The translations under genes and the position numbers were made by a program. From Escherichia coli phage AZ21, in sequence record LC788708.1: 64,000 bases of DNA. The stretch is one strand, 5' to 3'. The notes beneath the pieces are model-generated. The model saw only the letters and a list, made by a program, of their open reading frames with translations. It had not been told where the DNA came from and ran no database searches. Positions 2,310 to 6,607 of this stretch are shown piece by piece (within the stretch, counting starts at the first letter, position 1; each line of letters begins with the position of its first letter).

Positions 2310-3011
2310 ATGAAAGTAAAACCATTTGGTATGCTAGATATTGAATCTCTAGGAACTCCAGGAGATTGTGGTACTACCCATATCGCAATGCCTTCATTCG
2401 CTTTTGTGGCTATGCATGGAATTGATAAAGACCCTGATCTAGTATTTGTTACTTTAGATGTACAAGATCAACTTAATTCTGGTGCCAAAGTTACAGCATC
2501 TACTCTAGCATTCTGGATGGATCAGGCTAAACATAGCCCGTCTGCTATCCACATTATGGAAGCTATGAATGAGCGTAATCCAAAACTGGTTGCCTTCCAA
2601 AATGGTAAACATCATTGCACTAATAAACTTGGCTCTAACCATGCTGCCTTCTCTATGGCTCAAAATATTATGGAGTTGGCTCTAGGCGAAAATGCTTTGT
2701 ATTATGGCAATGGCCCAGAGTTTGATATGACTATCTACTCTGCAAACACTTTCCATGCTGGAACCAATGAAGAAATAGTTCCGTGGAAATTCTGGAACTT
2801 GGGTAATGTTAGATCTCTTCGTAATCTCTGGATGCAAACTGGCTATAGTTATAAAGCTCTAGAAACCGAAGGTATTAGCTGGGCAATAGCTAAAATGGAG
2901 AAGATGGACACCATTCGTTATGGGATCTATCCGGTTAAGCACGACCCAGCATTCGATGCCCTAGTTGAGAGCTATTGTGTTGCAGCTATGATCGAAAAAA
3001 TGAAAATTTGA
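2310..3011 (+). CDS. DEDDh-type 3'-5' exonuclease-like protein
   Basis: 233 aa; MLDIESLG (Exo I D-x-E), YGNGPEFDMTIY (Exo II), KHDPAFDALVESY (Exo III H-x4-D) by eye. Confidence 0.55.
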   Translation: MKVKPFGMLDIESLGTPGDCGTTHIAMPSFAFVAMHGIDKDPDLVFVTLDVQDQLNSGAKVTASTLAFWMDQAKHSPSAIHIMEAMNERNPKLVAFQNGKHHCTNKLGSNHAAFSMAQNIMELALGENALYYGNGPEFDMTIYSANTFHAGTNEEIVPWKFWNLGNVRSLRNLWMQTGYSYKALETEGISWAIAKMEKMDTIRYGIYPVKHDPAFDALVESYCVAAMIEKMKI

Positions 3012-3012
3012 T

Positions 3013-3041
3013 TTGCTTCCGGCTCCAAAATTCTGTATAAT
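3013..3041 (+). promoter_or_regulatory. T5-type early sigma70 promoter
   Basis: TTGCTT-17-TATAAT, leader ATATTCATAAATTTGAGA as in T5 PN25-class promoters. Confidence 0.65.
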
Positions 3042-3081
3042 ATATTCATAAATTTGAGAAAACAATAAAAGGAAAACAAAT

Positions 3082-3264
3082 ATGCCAGTATCTAAAAATG
3101 TTCGTAAAAATGGTAAGAAAGCTACTCGTAATCTGGGTATCCGTCGTATGGCTGAACGTCAATCAGGTATCCAGAAAATCTTTGATCTGCTAAATCGTGC
3201 TAATCCTAAAATTGATAACAGTAACGATACTGTTCTGCGCACCCTGCTGGCAATTGGTCTGTAA
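3082..3264 (+). CDS. hypothetical basic protein
   Basis: 60 aa ORF behind T5-type promoter and RBS AAAGGAAAACAAATATG. Confidence 0.4.
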   Translation: MPVSKNVRKNGKKATRNLGIRRMAERQSGIQKIFDLLNRANPKIDNSNDTVLRTLLAIGL

Positions 3265-3317
3265 TAGACCAAATTTAAACAAATTCAAATCTCAAACTTC
3301 ATATAAGGAAGCAAATA

Positions 3318-3956
3318 ATGACTACTCGTATCTCTAAAACTCGCGCTCTGGCAACTATCAAATCTCTGGAAGCTAAAATCCGTAAAGCTACTGAACAACA
3401 GCTTCTGATCGCTGTTGGTGAAGGTAAGGATAAAAACCAGGTTGTAGTTGGCGCTGCAATCGAAGTAGATGCCCTGTCTACTCGTATTAAAACTGATTTC
3501 CAATCTCTGCTGGATATGATGTCTCAGCGTGATCGTATTAAATCTGCTCTGATTAAGAGCAATGCAGAAACAATCGTTGAGATTGGTTCTCGTAAGATGA
3601 CTGTTGCGGAAGCAATTGAAGCTAAGCGTTCTATGGAGCTTAAAGCTCAGCTGCTGGCTAACATGCGTAAGCAGTTCCATGCCGCTACGATTAAGTTTAA
3701 TACGCAGAAAGCACAGTTTGATGCTAAATATGAGCGTTTGCAGGATAGCATGGCTACCCGCGATAAGAAAACTTCCGAAGATGAAGTTAAAATGCAGCTC
3801 AATCTGCTGGAACTCAAGAATACTCCATTCTTGATTGATCCGCTGGAACTGGAGAAGCTGATTAAGCAGCATGACGAGGAATACCAGGACTTTGCAACAA
3901 ATGTTGACTTTGTTCTATCCGAGTCTAACGCCTCTACCTTCATTGAAGTAGAGTAA
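3318..3956 (+). CDS. hypothetical protein (coiled-coil)
   Basis: 212 aa ORF, RBS AAGGAAGCAAATAATG. Confidence 0.5.
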   Translation: MTTRISKTRALATIKSLEAKIRKATEQQLLIAVGEGKDKNQVVVGAAIEVDALSTRIKTDFQSLLDMMSQRDRIKSALIKSNAETIVEIGSRKMTVAEAIEAKRSMELKAQLLANMRKQFHAATIKFNTQKAQFDAKYERLQDSMATRDKKTSEDEVKMQLNLLELKNTPFLIDPLELEKLIKQHDEEYQDFATNVDFVLSESNASTFIEVE

Positions 3957-4339
3957 TAATTTAAAAGCTAGTAAATCGGTAGACGAAAGCCCAAGCATCT
4001 TACCTCGCAGCAGCGGTTGAAATACGAGGTTAAATAAGACCGCTGACCATACTATAAAGTATAATCTATTGGAGATTATGTTTATTACACCAGCCTCTTA
4101 AGCTGACACGTAAGAACAAAGCGTCGTTGATATTACCGACACAACTTCAAAGATCAACATTTAAGTATGAAAGCTGAAAAGTTTAAAGAACTCAAACTTC
4201 TAAACTTCTAAAGCTAAAAGATGCAAAGTATTCGTTGATGATTCAAACCCTAGATCAAAGGTACATGGCTCATAAGATATGGCCTGTGGCGCCTCTAGGC
4301 TGTTTATCGGTTTACTAGTTTCACAATTTAAAAATGTAT

Positions 4340-4368
4340 TTGCTAATTTACTAAGTTATCTGTATAAT
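4340..4368 (+). promoter_or_regulatory. T5-type early sigma70 promoter
   Basis: TTGCTA-17-TATAAT. Confidence 0.65.
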
Positions 4369-4398
4369 ATATTTTTAAATTGATGAAACGAGGCTATT

Positions 4399-4716
4399 AT
4401 GACTTTTCATATTTTGATTGATGATGTGCGTAATCTTCACGGAATGGACATTATCATTCGAACCCCAGAAGCCGCTGTAGAGTTTCTGAATAAAACTGAT
4501 ACCACAGGCCACTTCGTTTATATGGATAATGACTTGGCTGTAGATGGTATGGAAGGTTATCAAATTCTTCGTTTACTCTTAGAATTTGGGCAGAGACCAA
4601 AGAAAGTGGTACTAGTAACCTCAAACCCAGTAGCTAAGCAAAATATGCGTAATGATTTGCTTGACTTAGGGTATAAAGAAAATCCCAATCGTGTTGAATA
4701 TGATTGGCAGGAGTAA
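4399..4716 (+). CDS. hypothetical protein, CheY-like receiver-domain pattern
   Basis: 105 aa; HILIDDV (acidic pair), FVYMDNDL (Asp), KVVLVTSN (Thr/Ser) spaced like receiver-domain strands; tentative. Confidence 0.4.
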   Translation: MTFHILIDDVRNLHGMDIIIRTPEAAVEFLNKTDTTGHFVYMDNDLAVDGMEGYQILRLLLEFGQRPKKVVLVTSNPVAKQNMRNDLLDLGYKENPNRVEYDWQE

Positions 4717-4721
4717 AAAGA

Positions 4722-5171
4722 ATGAAGGCAGCTTTGCTTTTAGTAGCTGCCCTTACCTTCAGCTTTAGTAGTCAGGCATCGCACGATGCAAAAGAAATAG
4801 ATTGCATTGCTAAAAATATCTATTTCGAGAGTCGCGGTGAGGGCATAAAGGGAATGACGGCGGTTGCACATGTTACTAAAAACCGTGTAAACTCCGGTAA
4901 ATTCCCAGATTCCTACTGTAAAGTAGTATATCAGTCTAACCAGTTCTCTTGGGTATCTAAGAGACCAAAAGTTGATAAAACTGATGAGGCTTGGCAAACC
5001 GCTAAGAATTTAGCTAGAGTGATATACTACGTTGATTTACCACAAGATCCTACGTATGGAGCACTATACTTCCATAGTGGTAAAGATAAACCTTACTGGA
5101 CAAAGAAGTTTAAGAAAACAACTAAGATTAAGGGACATACGTTTTATAAACCTGTTGTCACTAAAACTTAA
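4722..5171 (+). CDS. secreted SleB-like cell-wall hydrolase (Hydrolase_2-like)
   Basis: N-terminal signal peptide MKAALLLVAALTFSFSSQA; IAKNIYFESRGEG...AHVTKNRV...YCKVVYQSNQFSW motif; AGGAG RBS; start moved from TTG 4704 to ATG 4722. Confidence 0.6.
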   Translation: MKAALLLVAALTFSFSSQASHDAKEIDCIAKNIYFESRGEGIKGMTAVAHVTKNRVNSGKFPDSYCKVVYQSNQFSWVSKRPKVDKTDEAWQTAKNLARVIYYVDLPQDPTYGALYFHSGKDKPYWTKKFKKTTKIKGHTFYKPVVTKT

Positions 5172-5179
5172 AAATTTAC

Positions 5180-5208
5180 TTGCTTAGCTACTTAAATTTC
5201 TGTATAAT
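5180..5208 (+). promoter_or_regulatory. T5-type early sigma70 promoter
   Basis: TTGCTT-17-TATAAT, leader TTTCATAAATTAATGAGAGG. Confidence 0.65.
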
Positions 5209-5239
5209 ACTTTCATAAATTAATGAGAGGAAGCGAAAT

Positions 5240-5410
5240 ATGAAATCAGTTGTAATTATTGGTGTTAACACTCGCGGTATTCGTACTACGAAAACTGTTA
5301 AAACTTCTAACGTTGCTGAAATCACTACGAACCCTAAAAAGTTTGATTTCGCCAAAGTCTCAGCAGTTATGACAGAACAATCTTTTAACCAAGCATTGGG
5401 GATGAAATAA
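5240..5410 (+). CDS. small hypothetical protein (56 aa)
   Basis: Short ORF directly behind promoter and GAGAGGAAGCGAAATATG RBS; stop overlaps next start (TAATG). Confidence 0.3.
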   Translation: MKSVVIIGVNTRGIRTTKTVKTSNVAEITTNPKKFDFAKVSAVMTEQSFNQALGMK

Positions 5411-5844
5411 TGGGTGAAAATATTCTAATGACCCTTCGTGGACTGCTTAGTCTAGCACGTACCCACGGTGATAAGGAGAGGGCACTTAATCTTCAGACCA
5501 TGATTGGTGATCTGCAACGTATTGATAAAGACATTGTTACTCGAACCGAGTTCGTAGCCTATCTGAAAGCTCAGATTAAGGCTCTAGAAAATGCAAAACA
5601 ACGCGCTATTAAAGTTGGTACGGAAGTTCCTACTGATGTAGACTATGAGCAACTGCTTTATTCCATGCTGCAAGAGTATCAGCCAAGTCAACTGACTGAA
5701 GTTCAGATTCGTGAGTATTTTGCAGAACTGGTTAAATTAAACCCAGGTATTACCAAAGCTCTATTAATGAAAACTATTAAGGCAGAATTTCCTGGACGTT
5801 ATGACGGTAAAACAACTGCTTTGATTGCTAGTGAATTTTTCTAA
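5410..5844 (+). CDS. hypothetical protein
   Basis: 144 aa ORF translationally coupled to upstream small ORF. Confidence 0.5.
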   Translation: MGENILMTLRGLLSLARTHGDKERALNLQTMIGDLQRIDKDIVTRTEFVAYLKAQIKALENAKQRAIKVGTEVPTDVDYEQLLYSMLQEYQPSQLTEVQIREYFAELVKLNPGITKALLMKTIKAEFPGRYDGKTTALIASEFF

Positions 5845-5852
5845 AAATTCAC

Positions 5853-5881
5853 TTGCTAAATGCTTATAAATTCTATATAAT
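5853..5881 (+). promoter_or_regulatory. T5-type promoter driving tRNA island
   Basis: TTGCTA-17-TATAAT about 80 nt upstream of first tRNA-like element. Confidence 0.6.
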
Positions 5882-5958
5882 ATATTCATAAATTAGATGA
5901 TAATTAGGCATCTAATTTATAAATAGTGGGGTGTGGAAATCACTTATGTAGTAACACT

Positions 5959-6030
5959 GCCGTCCTAGTATAATTGGTATTATCAAGCCGTAACTGGTGG
6001 AAGATGTAGGTTCGAATCCTACGGTCGGTA
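5959..6030 (+). tRNA. tRNA-like element (anticodon arm not resolved)
   Basis: GTAGG-TTCGAAT-CCTAC T-arm and 7-bp acceptor pairing (one mismatch) 70 nt downstream of promoter; no clean anticodon stem found by eye. Confidence 0.35.
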
Positions 6031-6532
6031 AGAACTGGATAACTGATGCTTTTAACGTAAAAGCTTCCGAGGTTAGTTGCGCACTGCCTAAACCACGCGG
6101 TAGTTGGTTCCAGACTAACCAACCAGTCTGCTGAATAGTTTTATTACGATTTAACTATGTCCAGGCTAAAGAAGAACTTTAGAAGGTATTCTAGGATAGT
6201 GAAGTTCTTTCTCCACATCGGAGTAGTTTTTCAAGCTATCCACAAAGTGGGAAATGCTGACATGAGAGATGTCACTAATGGTGCACAATAGCACAGGTAA
6301 TTCGCGATAATTCCTGTTGAGTAGCAGCAAAAGGCGGGAAGTCATGACCCCAAGCCTAACCGAGTCCTCAATATACCGCAGGGCATAACCACTAAGTCAC
6401 CCTGACTTAAACTGGAAAATAATAGACGTTACTGTATTTTGTCTTGAAATACTTAATGAGTGAGACTTATGACTCTCCCGGTATCGTCTGTATTTTTAAG
6501 AGTTTTTACGAGAGTTCTTAAAAATACTTAAA

Positions 6533-6607
6533 CGGGGTGTAGTCTAAGGGAGAGGCAGGAGTCTTCTAAATTCCTTTATGCAGGTTCGAATCCTGTCACC
6601 TCGGCCA
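6533..6607 (+). tRNA. tRNA-Arg (anticodon UCU)
   Basis: Acceptor CGGGGTG/CACCTCG, D-stem GTCT/AGGC, anticodon stem GGAGT/ATTCC with loop CTTCTAA, T-arm GCAGG-TTCGAAT-CCTGT, encoded CCA. Confidence 0.75.

What the first reader, a model, noticed from the sequence alone, without database searches (positions are those of the whole stretch)
3960..4330. 370-bp ORF-free interval with mutually exclusive hairpins
Between two promoter-driven genes lies a stretch with no ORF but alternative stem-loops (ACCTCG...CGAGGT versus CAGCGGT...ACCGCTG share bases) and short direct repeats (AACTTCTAAACTTCTAAAGCTAAAAG). This suggests a structured RNA or attenuator-like element.
Basis: seen in the sequence. Interest (0 to 1): 0.4.

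Follow-up and report, generated by a model that had tools for sequence, protein, structure and literature searches.

The report
New phage RNA gene, not attenuator
The "empty" 370-bp gap in this T5-like phage encodes a ~357-nt folded non-coding RNA with two pseudoknots and about eleven 7-nt repeats. It always follows one protein gene of unknown function in very different large phages, and it matches no catalogued RNA family.

Summary
The window is E. coli phage AZ23, a T5-like phage. The ORF-free gap, both hairpins and the direct repeats are real. The hairpins do not share bases, though. They interleave into an H-type pseudoknot whose second stem differs in sequence in nearly every lineage yet stays complementary.

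The gap holds a discrete ~357-nt RNA on the + strand (3965-4321). It has:
- a 21-bp closing stem (P1);
- a pseudoknotted core (P2 crossing P-a);
- about 11 tandem heptads (U-N-A-A-R-G-N).

On 46 non-redundant relatives the core helices are 86% paired, against 55% in shuffles (0/500).

The RNA begins a median 16.5 nt after the stop codon of a ~210-aa helical protein (T5.085, PHROG 1491, widely mislabelled "tail fiber"). I found it in 88 of 90 loci that carry that gene, from Gram-negative and Gram-positive phages. In 11 of 11 assessable loci found through the RNA, the protein gene was there too.

In relatives the RNA ends at an intrinsic terminator or directly at a tRNA. Rfam 15 has no match.

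The attenuator reading is rejected. The function is unknown; a protein-RNA particle linked to phage tRNA and RNA-repair genes is my best inference.

The parts
3013..3041 (+). Sigma-70-type promoter (TTGCTT, 17 nt, TATAAT) upstream of the 60-aa ORF. It is the likely start of the transcript that runs through 3082-3264, 3318-3956 and the RNA.
   Evidence: Sequence read. The homologous T5 position is annotated as a promoter. That it drives the RNA is inferred.
3318..3956 (+). Partner gene: 212-aa protein, T5.085 homologue, PHROG 1491. It is labelled 'tail fiber protein' in many records but has no Pfam domain. The model shows long helical hairpins plus a small beta-sheet.
3965..4321 (+). The non-coding RNA as a whole (357 nt), bounded by the two strands of closing stem P1.
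   Evidence: It is the only match to the element profile in the 64-kb window, on the + strand only.
3965..3985 (+). P1, 5' strand (21 bp with 4301-4321). It ends in the conserved ...CG before AAA.
   Evidence: (inverted repeat I1).
3989..3991 (+). P2, 5' strand (GCC, pairs with GGC 4288-4290). It is only 3 bp in T5-like phages and 6-10 bp in most other lineages. It crosses P-a, so it forms a pseudoknot.
4002..4030 (+). 5' pseudoknot, stem S1: ACCUCG 4002-4007 with CGAGGU 4025-4030.
4011..4045 (+). 5' pseudoknot, stem S2: CAGCGGUU 4011-4018 (inside the S1 loop) with GACCGCUG 4038-4045.
   Evidence: The S2 sequence differs in nearly every lineage but stays complementary.
4057..4083 (+). Hairpin H3 (4057-4067 with 4073-4083, loop AUUGG). 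It contains the chance TATAAT and GGAG-ATG look-alikes.
   Evidence: the stem covaries among T5-like, Seunavirus, Slocum and Pseudomonas-phage versions.
4091..4105 (+). Hairpin with a 7-nt anticodon-loop-like loop (CAGC-CUCUUAA-GCUG). It lies in the variable region, which in some other lineages carries T-arm-like hairpins or a whole tRNA.
4144..4232 (+). Tandem heptad array, about 11 units with consensus U-N-A-A-R-G-N. Matches to U-N-A-A/G start at 4147, 4154, 4161, 4168 and 4175 (7 nt apart), then at 4183/4184, 4192, 4201, 4209 and 4215 (units of 6-9 nt).
4249..4299 (+). 3' core. P-a is CCUAG 4249-4253 with CUAGG 4295-4299. A possible 3-bp extension is 4259-4261 with 4292-4294. Hairpin P-b spans 4263-4287 (conserved loop CAUAAGAUAUG). 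The 3' strand of P2 is 4288-4290.
4301..4321 (+). P1, 3' strand. It follows the near-invariant GGC-UG.
   Evidence: The homing-endonuclease cassette in phage bobsandoy is inserted between positions equivalent to 4320 and 4324.

Best explanation
The interval is a gene for a discrete, highly structured non-coding RNA of about 357 nt (3965-4321, + strand). It forms a conserved two-part module with the protein gene immediately upstream (T5.085 / PHROG 1491).

**Shown**
- The RNA is closed by a 21-bp stem between its ends (P1).
- It carries a register-conserved array of about 11 heptads (U-N-A-A-R-G-N) for which I found no conserved pairing partner.
- It is present wherever the protein gene is, in T5-like phages, Vequintavirinae, Erwinia jumbo phages, Pseudomonas Otagovirus, Vibrio, Bacillus and Clostridium phages, many metagenomic phages and one bacterial chromosome.

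**Inferred**
- In AZ23 the RNA is co-transcribed with the upstream gene from the promoter at about 3013-3041 and trimmed back to the P1 stem.
- The folded core gives stability and shape. The heptad array acts as a multivalent single-stranded platform that binds several copies of one protein. The most likely partner is the co-encoded, probably oligomeric, coiled-coil protein, so the two would form a ribonucleoprotein particle.
- The particle acts in the phage's tRNA and RNA-repair programme. It could be a scaffold or a decoy for enzymes that cut or mend A-rich or anticodon-like RNA.

**My confidence by step**
- Real structured RNA gene on the + strand: about 0.93.
- Functional unit with the upstream protein: about 0.7.
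- Direct binding of that protein to the heptads: about 0.35.
For: **Structure**
- I used a fixed-register alignment of the real strands from 46 non-redundant relatives.
- P1, P2 and P-a are 85.8% paired, against 54.7 +/- 1.2% in shuffles (0/500).
- The covariation score is 0.795 against 0.215 (0/500), and slid controls give 32-42% paired.
- 21 of 24 pairs show compensatory changes.
- An unfitted MAFFT alignment independently recovers P-a, P2 and part of P1.
- The 5' pseudoknot sits at a fixed position in 45/52 relatives against 129/520 shuffles, and its S2 sequences differ between lineages.

**Strand and RNA nature**
- There are 162 G.U cells against 25 A.C cells, and the closing pair of P1 is G.U in 44 of 46.
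- Fold z-score is -5.1 on the + strand and -2.6 on the - strand.

**Discrete ends**
- 10/51 relatives have an intrinsic terminator just after P1.
- 10/51 have a tRNA starting 1-10 nt after P1.
- One has a tRNA inside the variable region.

**Heptads**
- Spacing of exactly 7 makes up 31% of motif spacings, against 5.6% in shuffles.
- Invariant A's lie 7 nt apart in all 52 sequences.

**Linkage to the protein**
- 88/90 loci found through the protein carry the RNA, starting a median 16.5 nt after the stop codon.
- 11/11 assessable loci found through an RNA pattern carry the protein upstream on the same strand.
- A solitary gene-RNA-terminator unit sits among ordinary cellular genes in Tepidibacter hydrothermalis.

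**Purifying selection**
- The element is more conserved than the upstream CDS in all 27 T5-like loci.

**Context**
- tRNA islands are frequent nearby.
- T4-type RNA ligases and a kinase-like gene lie near two metagenomic copies.
- A cyclic-phosphate-processing receiver-domain gene is next door in AZ23.
Against: - No expression data were available, so the transcript, its ends and its abundance in T5-like infection are inferred.
- AZ23 has no terminator or tRNA at the RNA's 3' end, and no promoter of its own.
- P2 is only 3 bp in T5-like phages.
- Thermodynamic prediction shows the heptad array only slightly less paired than the rest of the RNA (0.44 against 0.37 unpaired probability).
- The RNA-repair context rests on a few loci.
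Confidence: 0.6

Rival explanations
1. RNA-only machine. The RNA works without the neighbouring protein, for example as a self-assembling multimer like ROOL or GOLLD. The link to the upstream gene would reflect only shared transcription within tRNA islands.
For: It occupies the same genomic niche as ROOL and GOLLD: phages, near tRNA islands, with tRNAs sometimes embedded. It is pseudoknot-rich. The protein shows no RNA-binding signature.
Against: The gene-RNA adjacency survives across Gram-negative and Gram-positive phages and in a solitary chromosomal copy, where nothing else is conserved. ROOL and GOLLD have no such fixed protein neighbour. There is no Rfam match to either.
Confidence: 0.15
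2. Decoy or sponge. The heptad array (AAAG-type units, anticodon-loop-like in length) soaks up a host factor. Candidates are a ribonuclease, a defence nuclease that cuts A-rich RNA or tRNA anticodon loops, or an A-rich-RNA-binding protein such as Hfq or S1. This would protect phage tRNAs and mRNAs.
For: The array is multivalent and register-conserved. tRNA islands and RNA-ligase, kinase-like and cREC neighbours are nearby. tRNA-like modules occur in some versions: a partial YrlA match in Ea35-70, an embedded tRNA in L057 and T-arm-like hairpins.
Against: No specific target can be named from sequence. There is no PADLOC hit nearby. This reading does not explain the obligatory co-encoded protein. 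It overlaps with, rather than excludes, the best explanation.
Confidence: 0.12
3. A purely cis-acting 3' UTR of the upstream gene. It would be an mRNA stabiliser or an autoregulatory binding site with no function in trans.
For: It starts a median 16.5 nt after the stop codon, and most versions have no promoter of their own.
Against: 260-440 nt with two pseudoknots and a closing stem that pairs the element's own two ends is far more than a stabiliser needs. The element is more conserved than the coding sequence it would serve. In many phages its 3' end abuts a tRNA, where RNase P cleavage would release it.
Confidence: 0.08
4. One reading: an attenuator or riboswitch-like leader. Alternative hairpins would control read-through into the downstream gene (4399-4716).
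For: It lies upstream of a gene, and nested folding programs can draw only one of the two stems at a time.
Against: The stems do not overlap and both are conserved together. No terminator-like site was found. The downstream gene's promoter lies after the element. A homing-endonuclease cassette separates the two in bobsandoy. The downstream neighbour is not conserved.
Confidence: 0.02
5. A DNA-level element (replication origin, nick or packaging site), or a degenerate copy of a known RNA (tRNA, tmRNA, RNase P RNA).
For: It is AT-rich and repetitive. I noticed a superficial resemblance between the AZ23 3' end (GGCUGUUUAUCGG...AGUUUCAC) and the 3' end of E. coli RNase P RNA.
Against: The strand-asymmetric G.U excess (162 against 25) and compensatory changes indicate a folded single strand. 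The 7-nt period does not match DNA helical phasing. Rfam, ARAGORN and a profile search against the rnpB locus all found nothing. The resemblance to RNase P is not shared by other lineages.
Confidence: 0.03

Closest known systems
ROOL and GOLLD RNAs (large 'ornate' phage and prophage RNAs; Rfam families)
   Same: They are encoded by phages and prophages, often beside tRNA islands. tRNAs are sometimes embedded in GOLLD's linker (paper 10.1101/2024.12.08.627333, read). They have many pseudoknots and no known function. The present RNA is likewise in or next to tRNA islands, sometimes abuts or contains a tRNA, and is pseudoknotted.
   Different: There is no covariance-model match. It is much smaller (255-443 nt, against roughly 580 and over 800). 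It carries a heptad repeat array. It has a fixed protein-coding partner directly upstream. It is found in virulent phages of enterobacteria, including T5.
Bacterial Y RNAs (YrlA) with Ro/Rsr
   Same: The 5' and 3' ends pair into a long closing stem. A tRNA-like module occurs in some versions: Ea35-70 matches the tRNA-like part of the YrlA model at 44.5 bits, E = 7e-7. RNA-repair genes lie in the neighbourhood.
   Different: The AZ23 RNA does not match YrlA. It is three times longer. Neither adjacent protein has a Pfam match that would mark it as Ro. The tRNA-like module is sporadic (5 of 52).
tmRNA
   Same: Similar size. A closing stem is made by the two ends. It has pseudoknots, including one just upstream of an A-rich, probably single-stranded stretch. 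It is linked to tRNA biology.
   Different: It has no acceptor/T-arm or CCA end. ARAGORN and Rfam tmRNA detection found nothing. The A-rich stretch is a 7-nt repeat full of stop codons, not a tag reading frame.
Multi-site protein-titrating RNAs (CsrB/RsmZ GGA repeats; the TRAP-binding (G/U)AG repeats of the trp leader) - from my own knowledge
   Same: They show the logic I propose for the heptads: many evenly spaced copies of a short single-stranded motif that load several subunits of one protein.
   Different: The motif (UNAARG), the period (7 nt) and the embedding in a closed pseudoknotted scaffold all differ. The binding partner here is unknown.
Guide-RNA modules encoded at the 3' end of their protein gene (TnpB/IscB omega-RNA) - from my own knowledge
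   Same: The gene order is the same: a protein ORF followed within a few nucleotides by a structured RNA of a few hundred nt that works with it.
   Different: There is no nuclease domain, no transposon ends and no guide segment. The protein is a 210-aa coiled-coil protein.

Membership tests
Transcription attenuator / riboswitch leader | Two alternative structures that compete for the same bases | tested here: not met
   S1 (4002-4007/4025-4030) and S2 (4011-4018/4038-4045) use disjoint bases. They co-occur as a pseudoknot in 45/52 relatives.
Transcription attenuator / riboswitch leader | An intrinsic terminator (or a sequestered RBS) between the promoter and the regulated gene | tested here: not met
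   No terminator-like site in 3000-5500. The downstream gene's promoter (4340-4368) lies 3' of the element.
ROOL / GOLLD | Match to the Rfam covariance model | tested here: not met
   No hit at E <= 10 on the 386-nt query. No hit in 29 related loci at E <= 1 or E <= 0.01.
ROOL / GOLLD | Phage or prophage location near tRNA islands | tested here: met
   25/51 relatives have tRNAs within about 3 kb, 10 have one abutting and 1 has one embedded. The AZ23 window has six tRNA genes at 6.5-11 kb.
ROOL / GOLLD | Homo-oligomeric RNA-only cage | not testable with these tools
   This needs cryo-EM or native gels.
Y RNA (YrlA) | Match to the YrlA model / tRNA-like domain | tested here: not met
   AZ23 has no hit. 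Only Ea35-70 has a partial hit, below the gathering score (44.5 against 69 bits).
Y RNA (YrlA) | An adjacent Ro/Rsr protein | tested here: not met
   The flanking proteins have no Pfam match or are cREC_REC. The rest of the genome was not screened.
tmRNA | tRNA-like domain with CCA end and a tag reading frame | tested here: not met
   ARAGORN finds no tmRNA in the window and Rfam finds none.
RNase P RNA | Match to the RNase P covariance models, or sequence similarity to rnpB | tested here: not met
   No Rfam hit. The element profile finds nothing in the E. coli rnpB locus at E <= 10.
Type III toxin-antitoxin (ToxIN-like) RNA repeats | Tandem repeats of about 34-36 nt upstream of an endoribonuclease toxin gene | tested here: not met
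   The repeats are 7 nt and lie downstream of the protein gene. The protein has no PADLOC match.
The new RNA family itself (working definition) | P1 closing stem flanked by ...CG|AAA and GGC|UG, the P2/P-a pseudoknot, a heptad array ending in AAAUCC, and a PHROG-1491 gene upstream | tested here: met
   AZ23 meets every feature, although P2 is only 3 bp.

The most novel reading that the evidence does not exclude
The RNA and the T5.085-family protein form a previously unrecognised ribonucleoprotein particle that is widespread in large tRNA-rich phages. An oligomeric coiled-coil protein would load, one subunit per 7-nt unit, onto the heptad array of a pseudoknotted scaffold RNA. The particle would protect or service phage and host tRNAs against RNA-targeting host defences. 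That would be a new class of phage counter-defence or RNA-maintenance machine, present in the model phage T5.
Probability: 0.3. Interest if true: 0.9.

Novelty: categorically new. Interest (0 to 1): 0.78.

Why it matters
- **A blind spot in a classic model.** T5 is one of the oldest model phages, yet this gap is unannotated or filled with spurious mini-ORFs in hundreds of deposited genomes. Its partner gene is propagated as 'tail fiber protein'.
- **Rare kind of find.** A conserved, pseudoknotted RNA of about 300-350 nt tied to one protein family across phages of Proteobacteria and Firmicutes would add a third family to the very short list of large phage RNAs found beside tRNA islands (ROOL, GOLLD). 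It would be the first with an obvious protein partner and a genetically tractable host system (E. coli with T5).
- **Unusual feature.** I know of no described RNA with a comparable register-conserved heptad array. It offers a direct handle for binding and structural studies.
- **Practical gains.** Correcting the annotation and adding a covariance model would help phage genome annotation. Knowing whether the module counters RNA-targeting defences matters for choosing therapeutic T5-like and Vequintavirinae phages.

Tried and rejected
1. **Rfam.** Four E-value-mode scans found nothing in the element except a partial YrlA hit in one relative.
2. **RNase P idea.** I noticed GGCUGUUUAUCGG...AGUUUCAC at the AZ23 3' end, which resembles the E. 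coli M1 RNA 3' end. I fetched rnpB. Neither Rfam nor the profile supports it, other lineages lack the resemblance, and the 'AUCGG' belongs to a continuous 21-bp stem. Rejected as coincidence.
3. **Internal promoter, SD and 7-codon ORF.** TATAAT at 4060-4065 and GGAG-ATG at 4071-4080 lie inside hairpin H3, which covaries. The promoter scan did not call them. Rejected.
4. **Small peptide in the heptads.** MKAEKFKELKLLNF at 4167-4211 is not conserved as a reading frame. The region aligns by 7-nt units. Rejected.
5. **Whole-alignment RNAalifold.** It recovered only P-a, because MAFFT put P1 and the pseudoknot out of register. I replaced it with anchor-based fixed-register constructs.
6. **Unconstrained pseudoknot search.** The null was too permissive (native score 29.8 against 27.5). 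I replaced it with a position-constrained search.
7. **Pairing inside the heptad array.** A column-pair scan found no conserved stacks there.
8. **Protein identification.** These gave nothing interpretable beyond 3kdq (unknown function):
   - Pfam, on the AZ23 protein alone and on all 39 homologues
   - PADLOC
   - PDB sequence search
   - Foldseek-PDB
   - PHROGs gave only PHROG 1491, the family that carries the 'tail fiber protein' label.
   - The afdb50 library was unavailable.
9. **Literature.** Five searches found no description of this RNA or of T5.085. A 2026 preprint on language-model mining of non-coding elements surfaced in a search but is not held in the library, so prior description there cannot be excluded.
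Full report
**Identity of the window.** Positions 3300-5200 are 100% identical to Escherichia coli phage AZ23 (LC788707.1; Tequintavirus, T5-like). More than 430 deposited T5-like genomes match over at least 80% of that stretch. The finding lies between two genes:
- the homologue of T5.085 (3318-3956, 212 aa), which falls in PHROG 1491 'tail fiber protein' but has no Pfam domain;
- the homologue of T5.084 (4399-4716), which carries the Pfam cREC_REC cyclic-phosphate-processing receiver domain.

Depositors leave the gap empty or call a 34-aa ORF in it.

**Checking the observation.**
- The interval has no ORF above 34 aa on either strand.
ACCUCG (4002-4007) / CGAGGU (4025-4030) and CAGCGGUU (4011-4018) / GACCGCUG (4038-4045) share no bases. 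The second stem's 5' arm sits in the loop of the first, which is the topology of an H-type pseudoknot. Nested-folding programs can draw only one stem at a time, and the MFE structure picks S2. That is why the two look 'mutually exclusive'.
- The exact element folds far better than shuffles on the + strand (z = -5.1, 0/100) and less so on the - strand (z = -2.6).

**The gap is under stronger selection than its flanking genes.**
- Across 27 T5-like loci the element is more conserved than the upstream CDS in every case.
- Against Epseptimaviruses it is 94.6-95.2% identical. The upstream gene is 84-90% identical and the downstream gene 86-89% (the same trend shows).
- A blastn search also found a 71-74% match to part of the gap in Seunavirus phages (Vequintavirinae). 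Their T5.085 homologue is only about 38% identical at the protein level.

**The gap follows the same gene in very different phages.**
- A tblastn search with the 212-aa protein found 743 phage records. They include Salmonella, Escherichia, Pseudomonas, Vibrio, Bacillus, Klebsiella, Erwinia, Lactococcus and Clostridium phages.
- In all ten phages I inspected outside the T5/Epseptimavirus group, the gene is followed by 340-640 nt with no credible annotated gene. These were Slocum, PVP-SE1, FENT2, Ea35-70, phiPsa300, Ceto, Thurquoise, SeKF_80, phiCD211 and AZ23.
- Eighty more loci came from IMG/VR through a protein alignment.
- A sequence profile built from just six gaps recognised the region downstream of the gene in 68 of 89 loci. 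With anchored stem detection, 88 of 90 loci have the element. It is 255-443 nt long (median 317) and starts a median 16.5 nt after the stop codon.
- In the reverse direction I scanned IMG/VR with an RNA-only pattern. Thirteen hits matched the RNA profile. All eleven with enough upstream sequence have the protein gene on the same strand.
- Three further loci reached by exact-protein look-up also carry the RNA. One is a solitary gene-RNA-terminator unit among ordinary cellular genes in the Tepidibacter hydrothermalis chromosome.

**Architecture (AZ23 coordinates).**
- **P1** pairs the two ends: 3965-3985 with 4301-4321, 21 bp. It is bracketed by the near-invariant ...CG|AAA and GGC|UG.
- **P2** starts one or two bases after P1 on the 5' side. 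It pairs with a segment about 10 nt upstream of GGCUG. In T5-likes it is only GCC 3989-3991 with GGC 4288-4290. In most other lineages it is 6-10 bp.
- **P-a** (CCUAG 4249-4253 with CUAGG 4295-4299) encloses the 3' strand of P2, so P2 and P-a form a pseudoknot. A 3-bp extension is possible (4259-4261 with 4292-4294), as is a hairpin P-b (4263-4287).
- **The 5' pseudoknot** (S1 and S2, above) starts 12-26 nt after P1 (15-20 nt in most lineages).
- **Hairpin H3** (4057-4083) follows. Next is a variable region containing a hairpin with a 7-nt anticodon-loop-like loop (4091-4105). Then comes the heptad array (4144-4232), ending in the conserved UUCAAAYCC that leads into P-a.

**Covariation tests.**
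- MAFFT cannot keep long-range stems of such divergent sequences in register. I therefore cut out the real strands at fixed offsets from the two sequence anchors, joined them with constant spacers, and counted pairs on 46 non-redundant relatives.
- The result was 85.8% of cells paired, against 54.7 +/- 1.2% when 3' partners are shuffled among sequences (0/500).
- The covariation score was 0.795 against 0.215 (0/500).
- Sliding partners by 1-3 columns gave 32-42% paired.
- 21 of 24 pairs showed double changes. P-a alone was 98.7% paired, with up to six pair types per position.
- The register was fixed, not optimised per sequence, so P2 (71% paired) is if anything undercounted. A fair cross-sequence null for P2 gives 5.2 native pairs out of 6 against 3.8.
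- The unfitted MAFFT alignment of 52 full elements independently recovers P-a, and also P2 and part of P1.
- The 5' pseudoknot was found under tight positional and loop-length constraints in 45/52 relatives, against 129/520 shuffled controls. Its S2 arms differ between lineages (CGAGGC, AGGGCAC, UUGGCCGG, UUAGCCAC, UUCUCGC, GGAGAGC, UGCUGGCA and others) and are always matched by their complement.

**Which strand, and RNA or DNA?**
- G.U pairs outnumber A.C mismatches by 162 to 25 in the three core helices.
- The pair that closes P1 is G.U in 44 of 46 sequences. On the other strand these would be mismatches.
- The folded molecule is therefore the + strand, the same strand as the genes.
- The element profile hits the 64-kb window once, on the + strand only.

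**Ends of the RNA.**
- In ten of 51 relatives an intrinsic terminator follows P1 within about 40 nt. These include Pseudomonas-phage versions, Vibrio phage Ceto and Bacillus phage Thurquoise. The Tepidibacter copy, outside that set, also ends in a terminator.
- In ten more relatives a tRNA gene begins 1-10 nt after P1. RNase P cleavage at the tRNA 5' end, a known activity, would release the RNA exactly at its closing stem.
- In one relative (L057) a tRNA-Thr sits inside the variable region.
- AZ23 and T5 have neither a terminator nor a tRNA there. The sequence after 4321 is an AT-only inverted repeat that carries the next promoter.
- I infer that here the RNA is made by read-through from the promoter at 3013-3041 and trimmed to P1. 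This step is not shown.
- In phage bobsandoy a 540-bp homing-endonuclease cassette is inserted between positions equivalent to 4320 and 4324. The RNA stays intact but is separated from the downstream promoter and gene. A NUMOD3 endonuclease gene likewise follows the RNA in a metagenomic phage.

**The heptad array.**
- Starts of A-runs are spaced 7 nt apart far more often than any other distance (212 at 7, 59 at 6, 80 at 8).
- Matches to U-N-A-A/G are exactly 7 apart in 31% of cases, against 5.6% after shuffling.
- In the 52-sequence alignment the register is conserved throughout. Invariant A's fall at element positions 199, 206 and 213, and near-invariant U's at 190, 197, 211 and 218.
- The unit is roughly U-N-A-A(0.84)-A(0.54)-G(0.44)-U(0.49).
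- No conserved pairing partner for the array was found.
- Lineage-specific GC-rich hairpins are inserted between units without disturbing them.
- Prediction makes the array only modestly less paired than the rest.
- I read it as an exposed, multivalent single-stranded platform. This is an inference.

**The protein.**
- Homologues are 199-238 aa, mostly 204-215, with conserved R9, K15, R71, K75 and K103 and two SNAxT motifs.
- The AlphaFold model (pLDDT 88.5) shows two long helical hairpins joined by short strands.
- There is no Pfam, PADLOC or PDB-sequence match.
- The protein is near neutral, with a basic N-terminal half.
- Nothing supports the 'tail fiber' label. The gene sits in the early and tRNA region, among an RNase H, an Rv2179c-like exoribonuclease and the cREC gene.

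**Comparison with known RNAs.**
- Rfam 15 gives no match to the AZ23 element even at E <= 10 on a 386-nt query. It gives none in 29 related loci apart from genuine tRNAs and one partial, sub-threshold match to the tRNA-like part of YrlA inside the Ea35-70 version.
- ARAGORN sees no tmRNA.
- An RNase P resemblance that I noticed by eye did not survive testing.
- The closest known things by niche are ROOL and GOLLD. The cryo-EM preprint describes them as phage and prophage RNAs 'often near tRNA islands', with tRNAs sometimes inside GOLLD's linker.
- The present RNA shares that niche but is unrelated by model, much smaller, repeat-bearing and tied to a protein gene.
- Five literature searches found no description of it. 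One 2026 preprint on mining non-coding elements could not be read.

**Mechanism.**
- What is shown: a conserved, closed, doubly pseudoknotted + strand RNA with a heptad array, genetically locked to one protein family, and often embedded in tRNA islands.
- What I infer: the pair forms a ribonucleoprotein in which the array binds several copies of a protein, most simply the co-encoded one. The module would serve the phage's tRNA and RNA-repair programme.
- Neighbouring genes point the same way. T4-type RNA ligases 1 and 2 and a kinase-like gene lie near two metagenomic copies, and a cREC gene is next door in T5-likes.
- RNA-only assembly, a decoy for a host RNA-binding or RNA-cutting factor, and a purely cis-acting 3' UTR remain live alternatives.
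- The attenuator model and DNA-element models are contradicted.

**Verdict.** The interval is a new structured RNA gene rather than a regulatory leader. It belongs to a widespread, uncatalogued RNA family with a dedicated protein partner. I rate it of high interest. The main uncertainties are the absence of expression data and an unknown function.

Noticed in passing
window 3318-3956, and homologues in hundreds of records: The partner gene is annotated 'tail fiber protein' in many GenBank and RefSeq phage records and in PHROG 1491. It lies in the early/tRNA region, has no tail-fibre-like fold and always precedes the RNA. The label looks like a propagated misannotation.
   Followed up: partly
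window 4279-4383 (+): Some relatives annotate a 34-aa ORF here as a hypothetical protein (for example PS3-1 and FGS017). It overlaps the RNA's 3' core, P1 and the downstream promoter, and the homing-endonuclease insertion in bobsandoy splits it. It is probably not a gene.
   Followed up: partly
L005 1891-2403 (phage bobsandoy); also PMBT31; L216 6991-7677: Homing-endonuclease genes are inserted immediately 3' of the RNA's closing stem, in two Epseptimaviruses and (a NUMOD3 type) in an unrelated metagenomic phage. This suggests a recurrent insertion hotspot at the RNA's 3' boundary.
   Followed up: partly
window 4324-4340 / 4366-4382: A 17-nt, 94%-complementary, AT-only inverted repeat encloses the whole promoter of the downstream gene (TTGCTA 4340-4345, TATAAT 4363-4368). 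Its purpose is unknown. It could be an operator, a processing site or a weak terminator.
   Followed up: no
L009 2253-2316 (Erwinia phage Ea35-70); L057 1929-2002: Variable regions of the RNA can host tRNA-like modules. Ea35-70 has an insertion matching the tRNA-like domain of YrlA (44.5 bits, below threshold). One IMG/VR phage has a complete tRNA-Thr inside the RNA. Five of 52 versions have T-arm-like hairpins.
   Followed up: partly
window 4091-4105: The hairpin CAGC-CUCUUAA-GCUG has a 7-nt loop that reads like an anticodon loop (U33, CUU = Lys, A37). Aligned hairpins in other lineages keep the C-U-N-N-N-A-N loop shape but with different 'anticodons'.
   Followed up: partly
window approx. 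5815-6532, upstream of tRNA-Arg 6533-6607: The T5 reference annotates the homologous 719 nt as 'RNAX, stable RNA with unknown functions'. AZ23 leaves it unannotated. This is a second large non-coding stretch in the same region that deserves the same comparative treatment.
   Followed up: no
L218 6001-7060 (Tepidibacter hydrothermalis chromosome CP120733.1): A solitary copy of the protein gene plus RNA plus a strong terminator sits between a chemotaxis receptor gene and molybdenum-cofactor genes. No phage genes lie within 6 kb. It could be a domesticated or mobile two-part module.
   Followed up: partly
L216 517-1897; L217 3640-4575; window 4399-4716 and 2310-3011: RNA-repair-type genes recur near the module. 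These are T4 RNA ligase 1 with an AAA_33 kinase-like gene, T4 RNA ligase 2, a cREC_REC receiver-domain gene and an Rv2179c-like 3'-5' exoribonuclease.
   Followed up: partly
one search hit H34 (OR848534.1); P0010: A 5.3-kb record named 'Listeria phage LM 4-14-1' is 99.8% identical to this T5-like region, and a partial 'Enterococcus faecalis' protein is 97% identical to the partner protein. The organism tally also lists two Campylobacter-named records, which I did not inspect. These look like contamination or mislabelled hosts.
   Followed up: no
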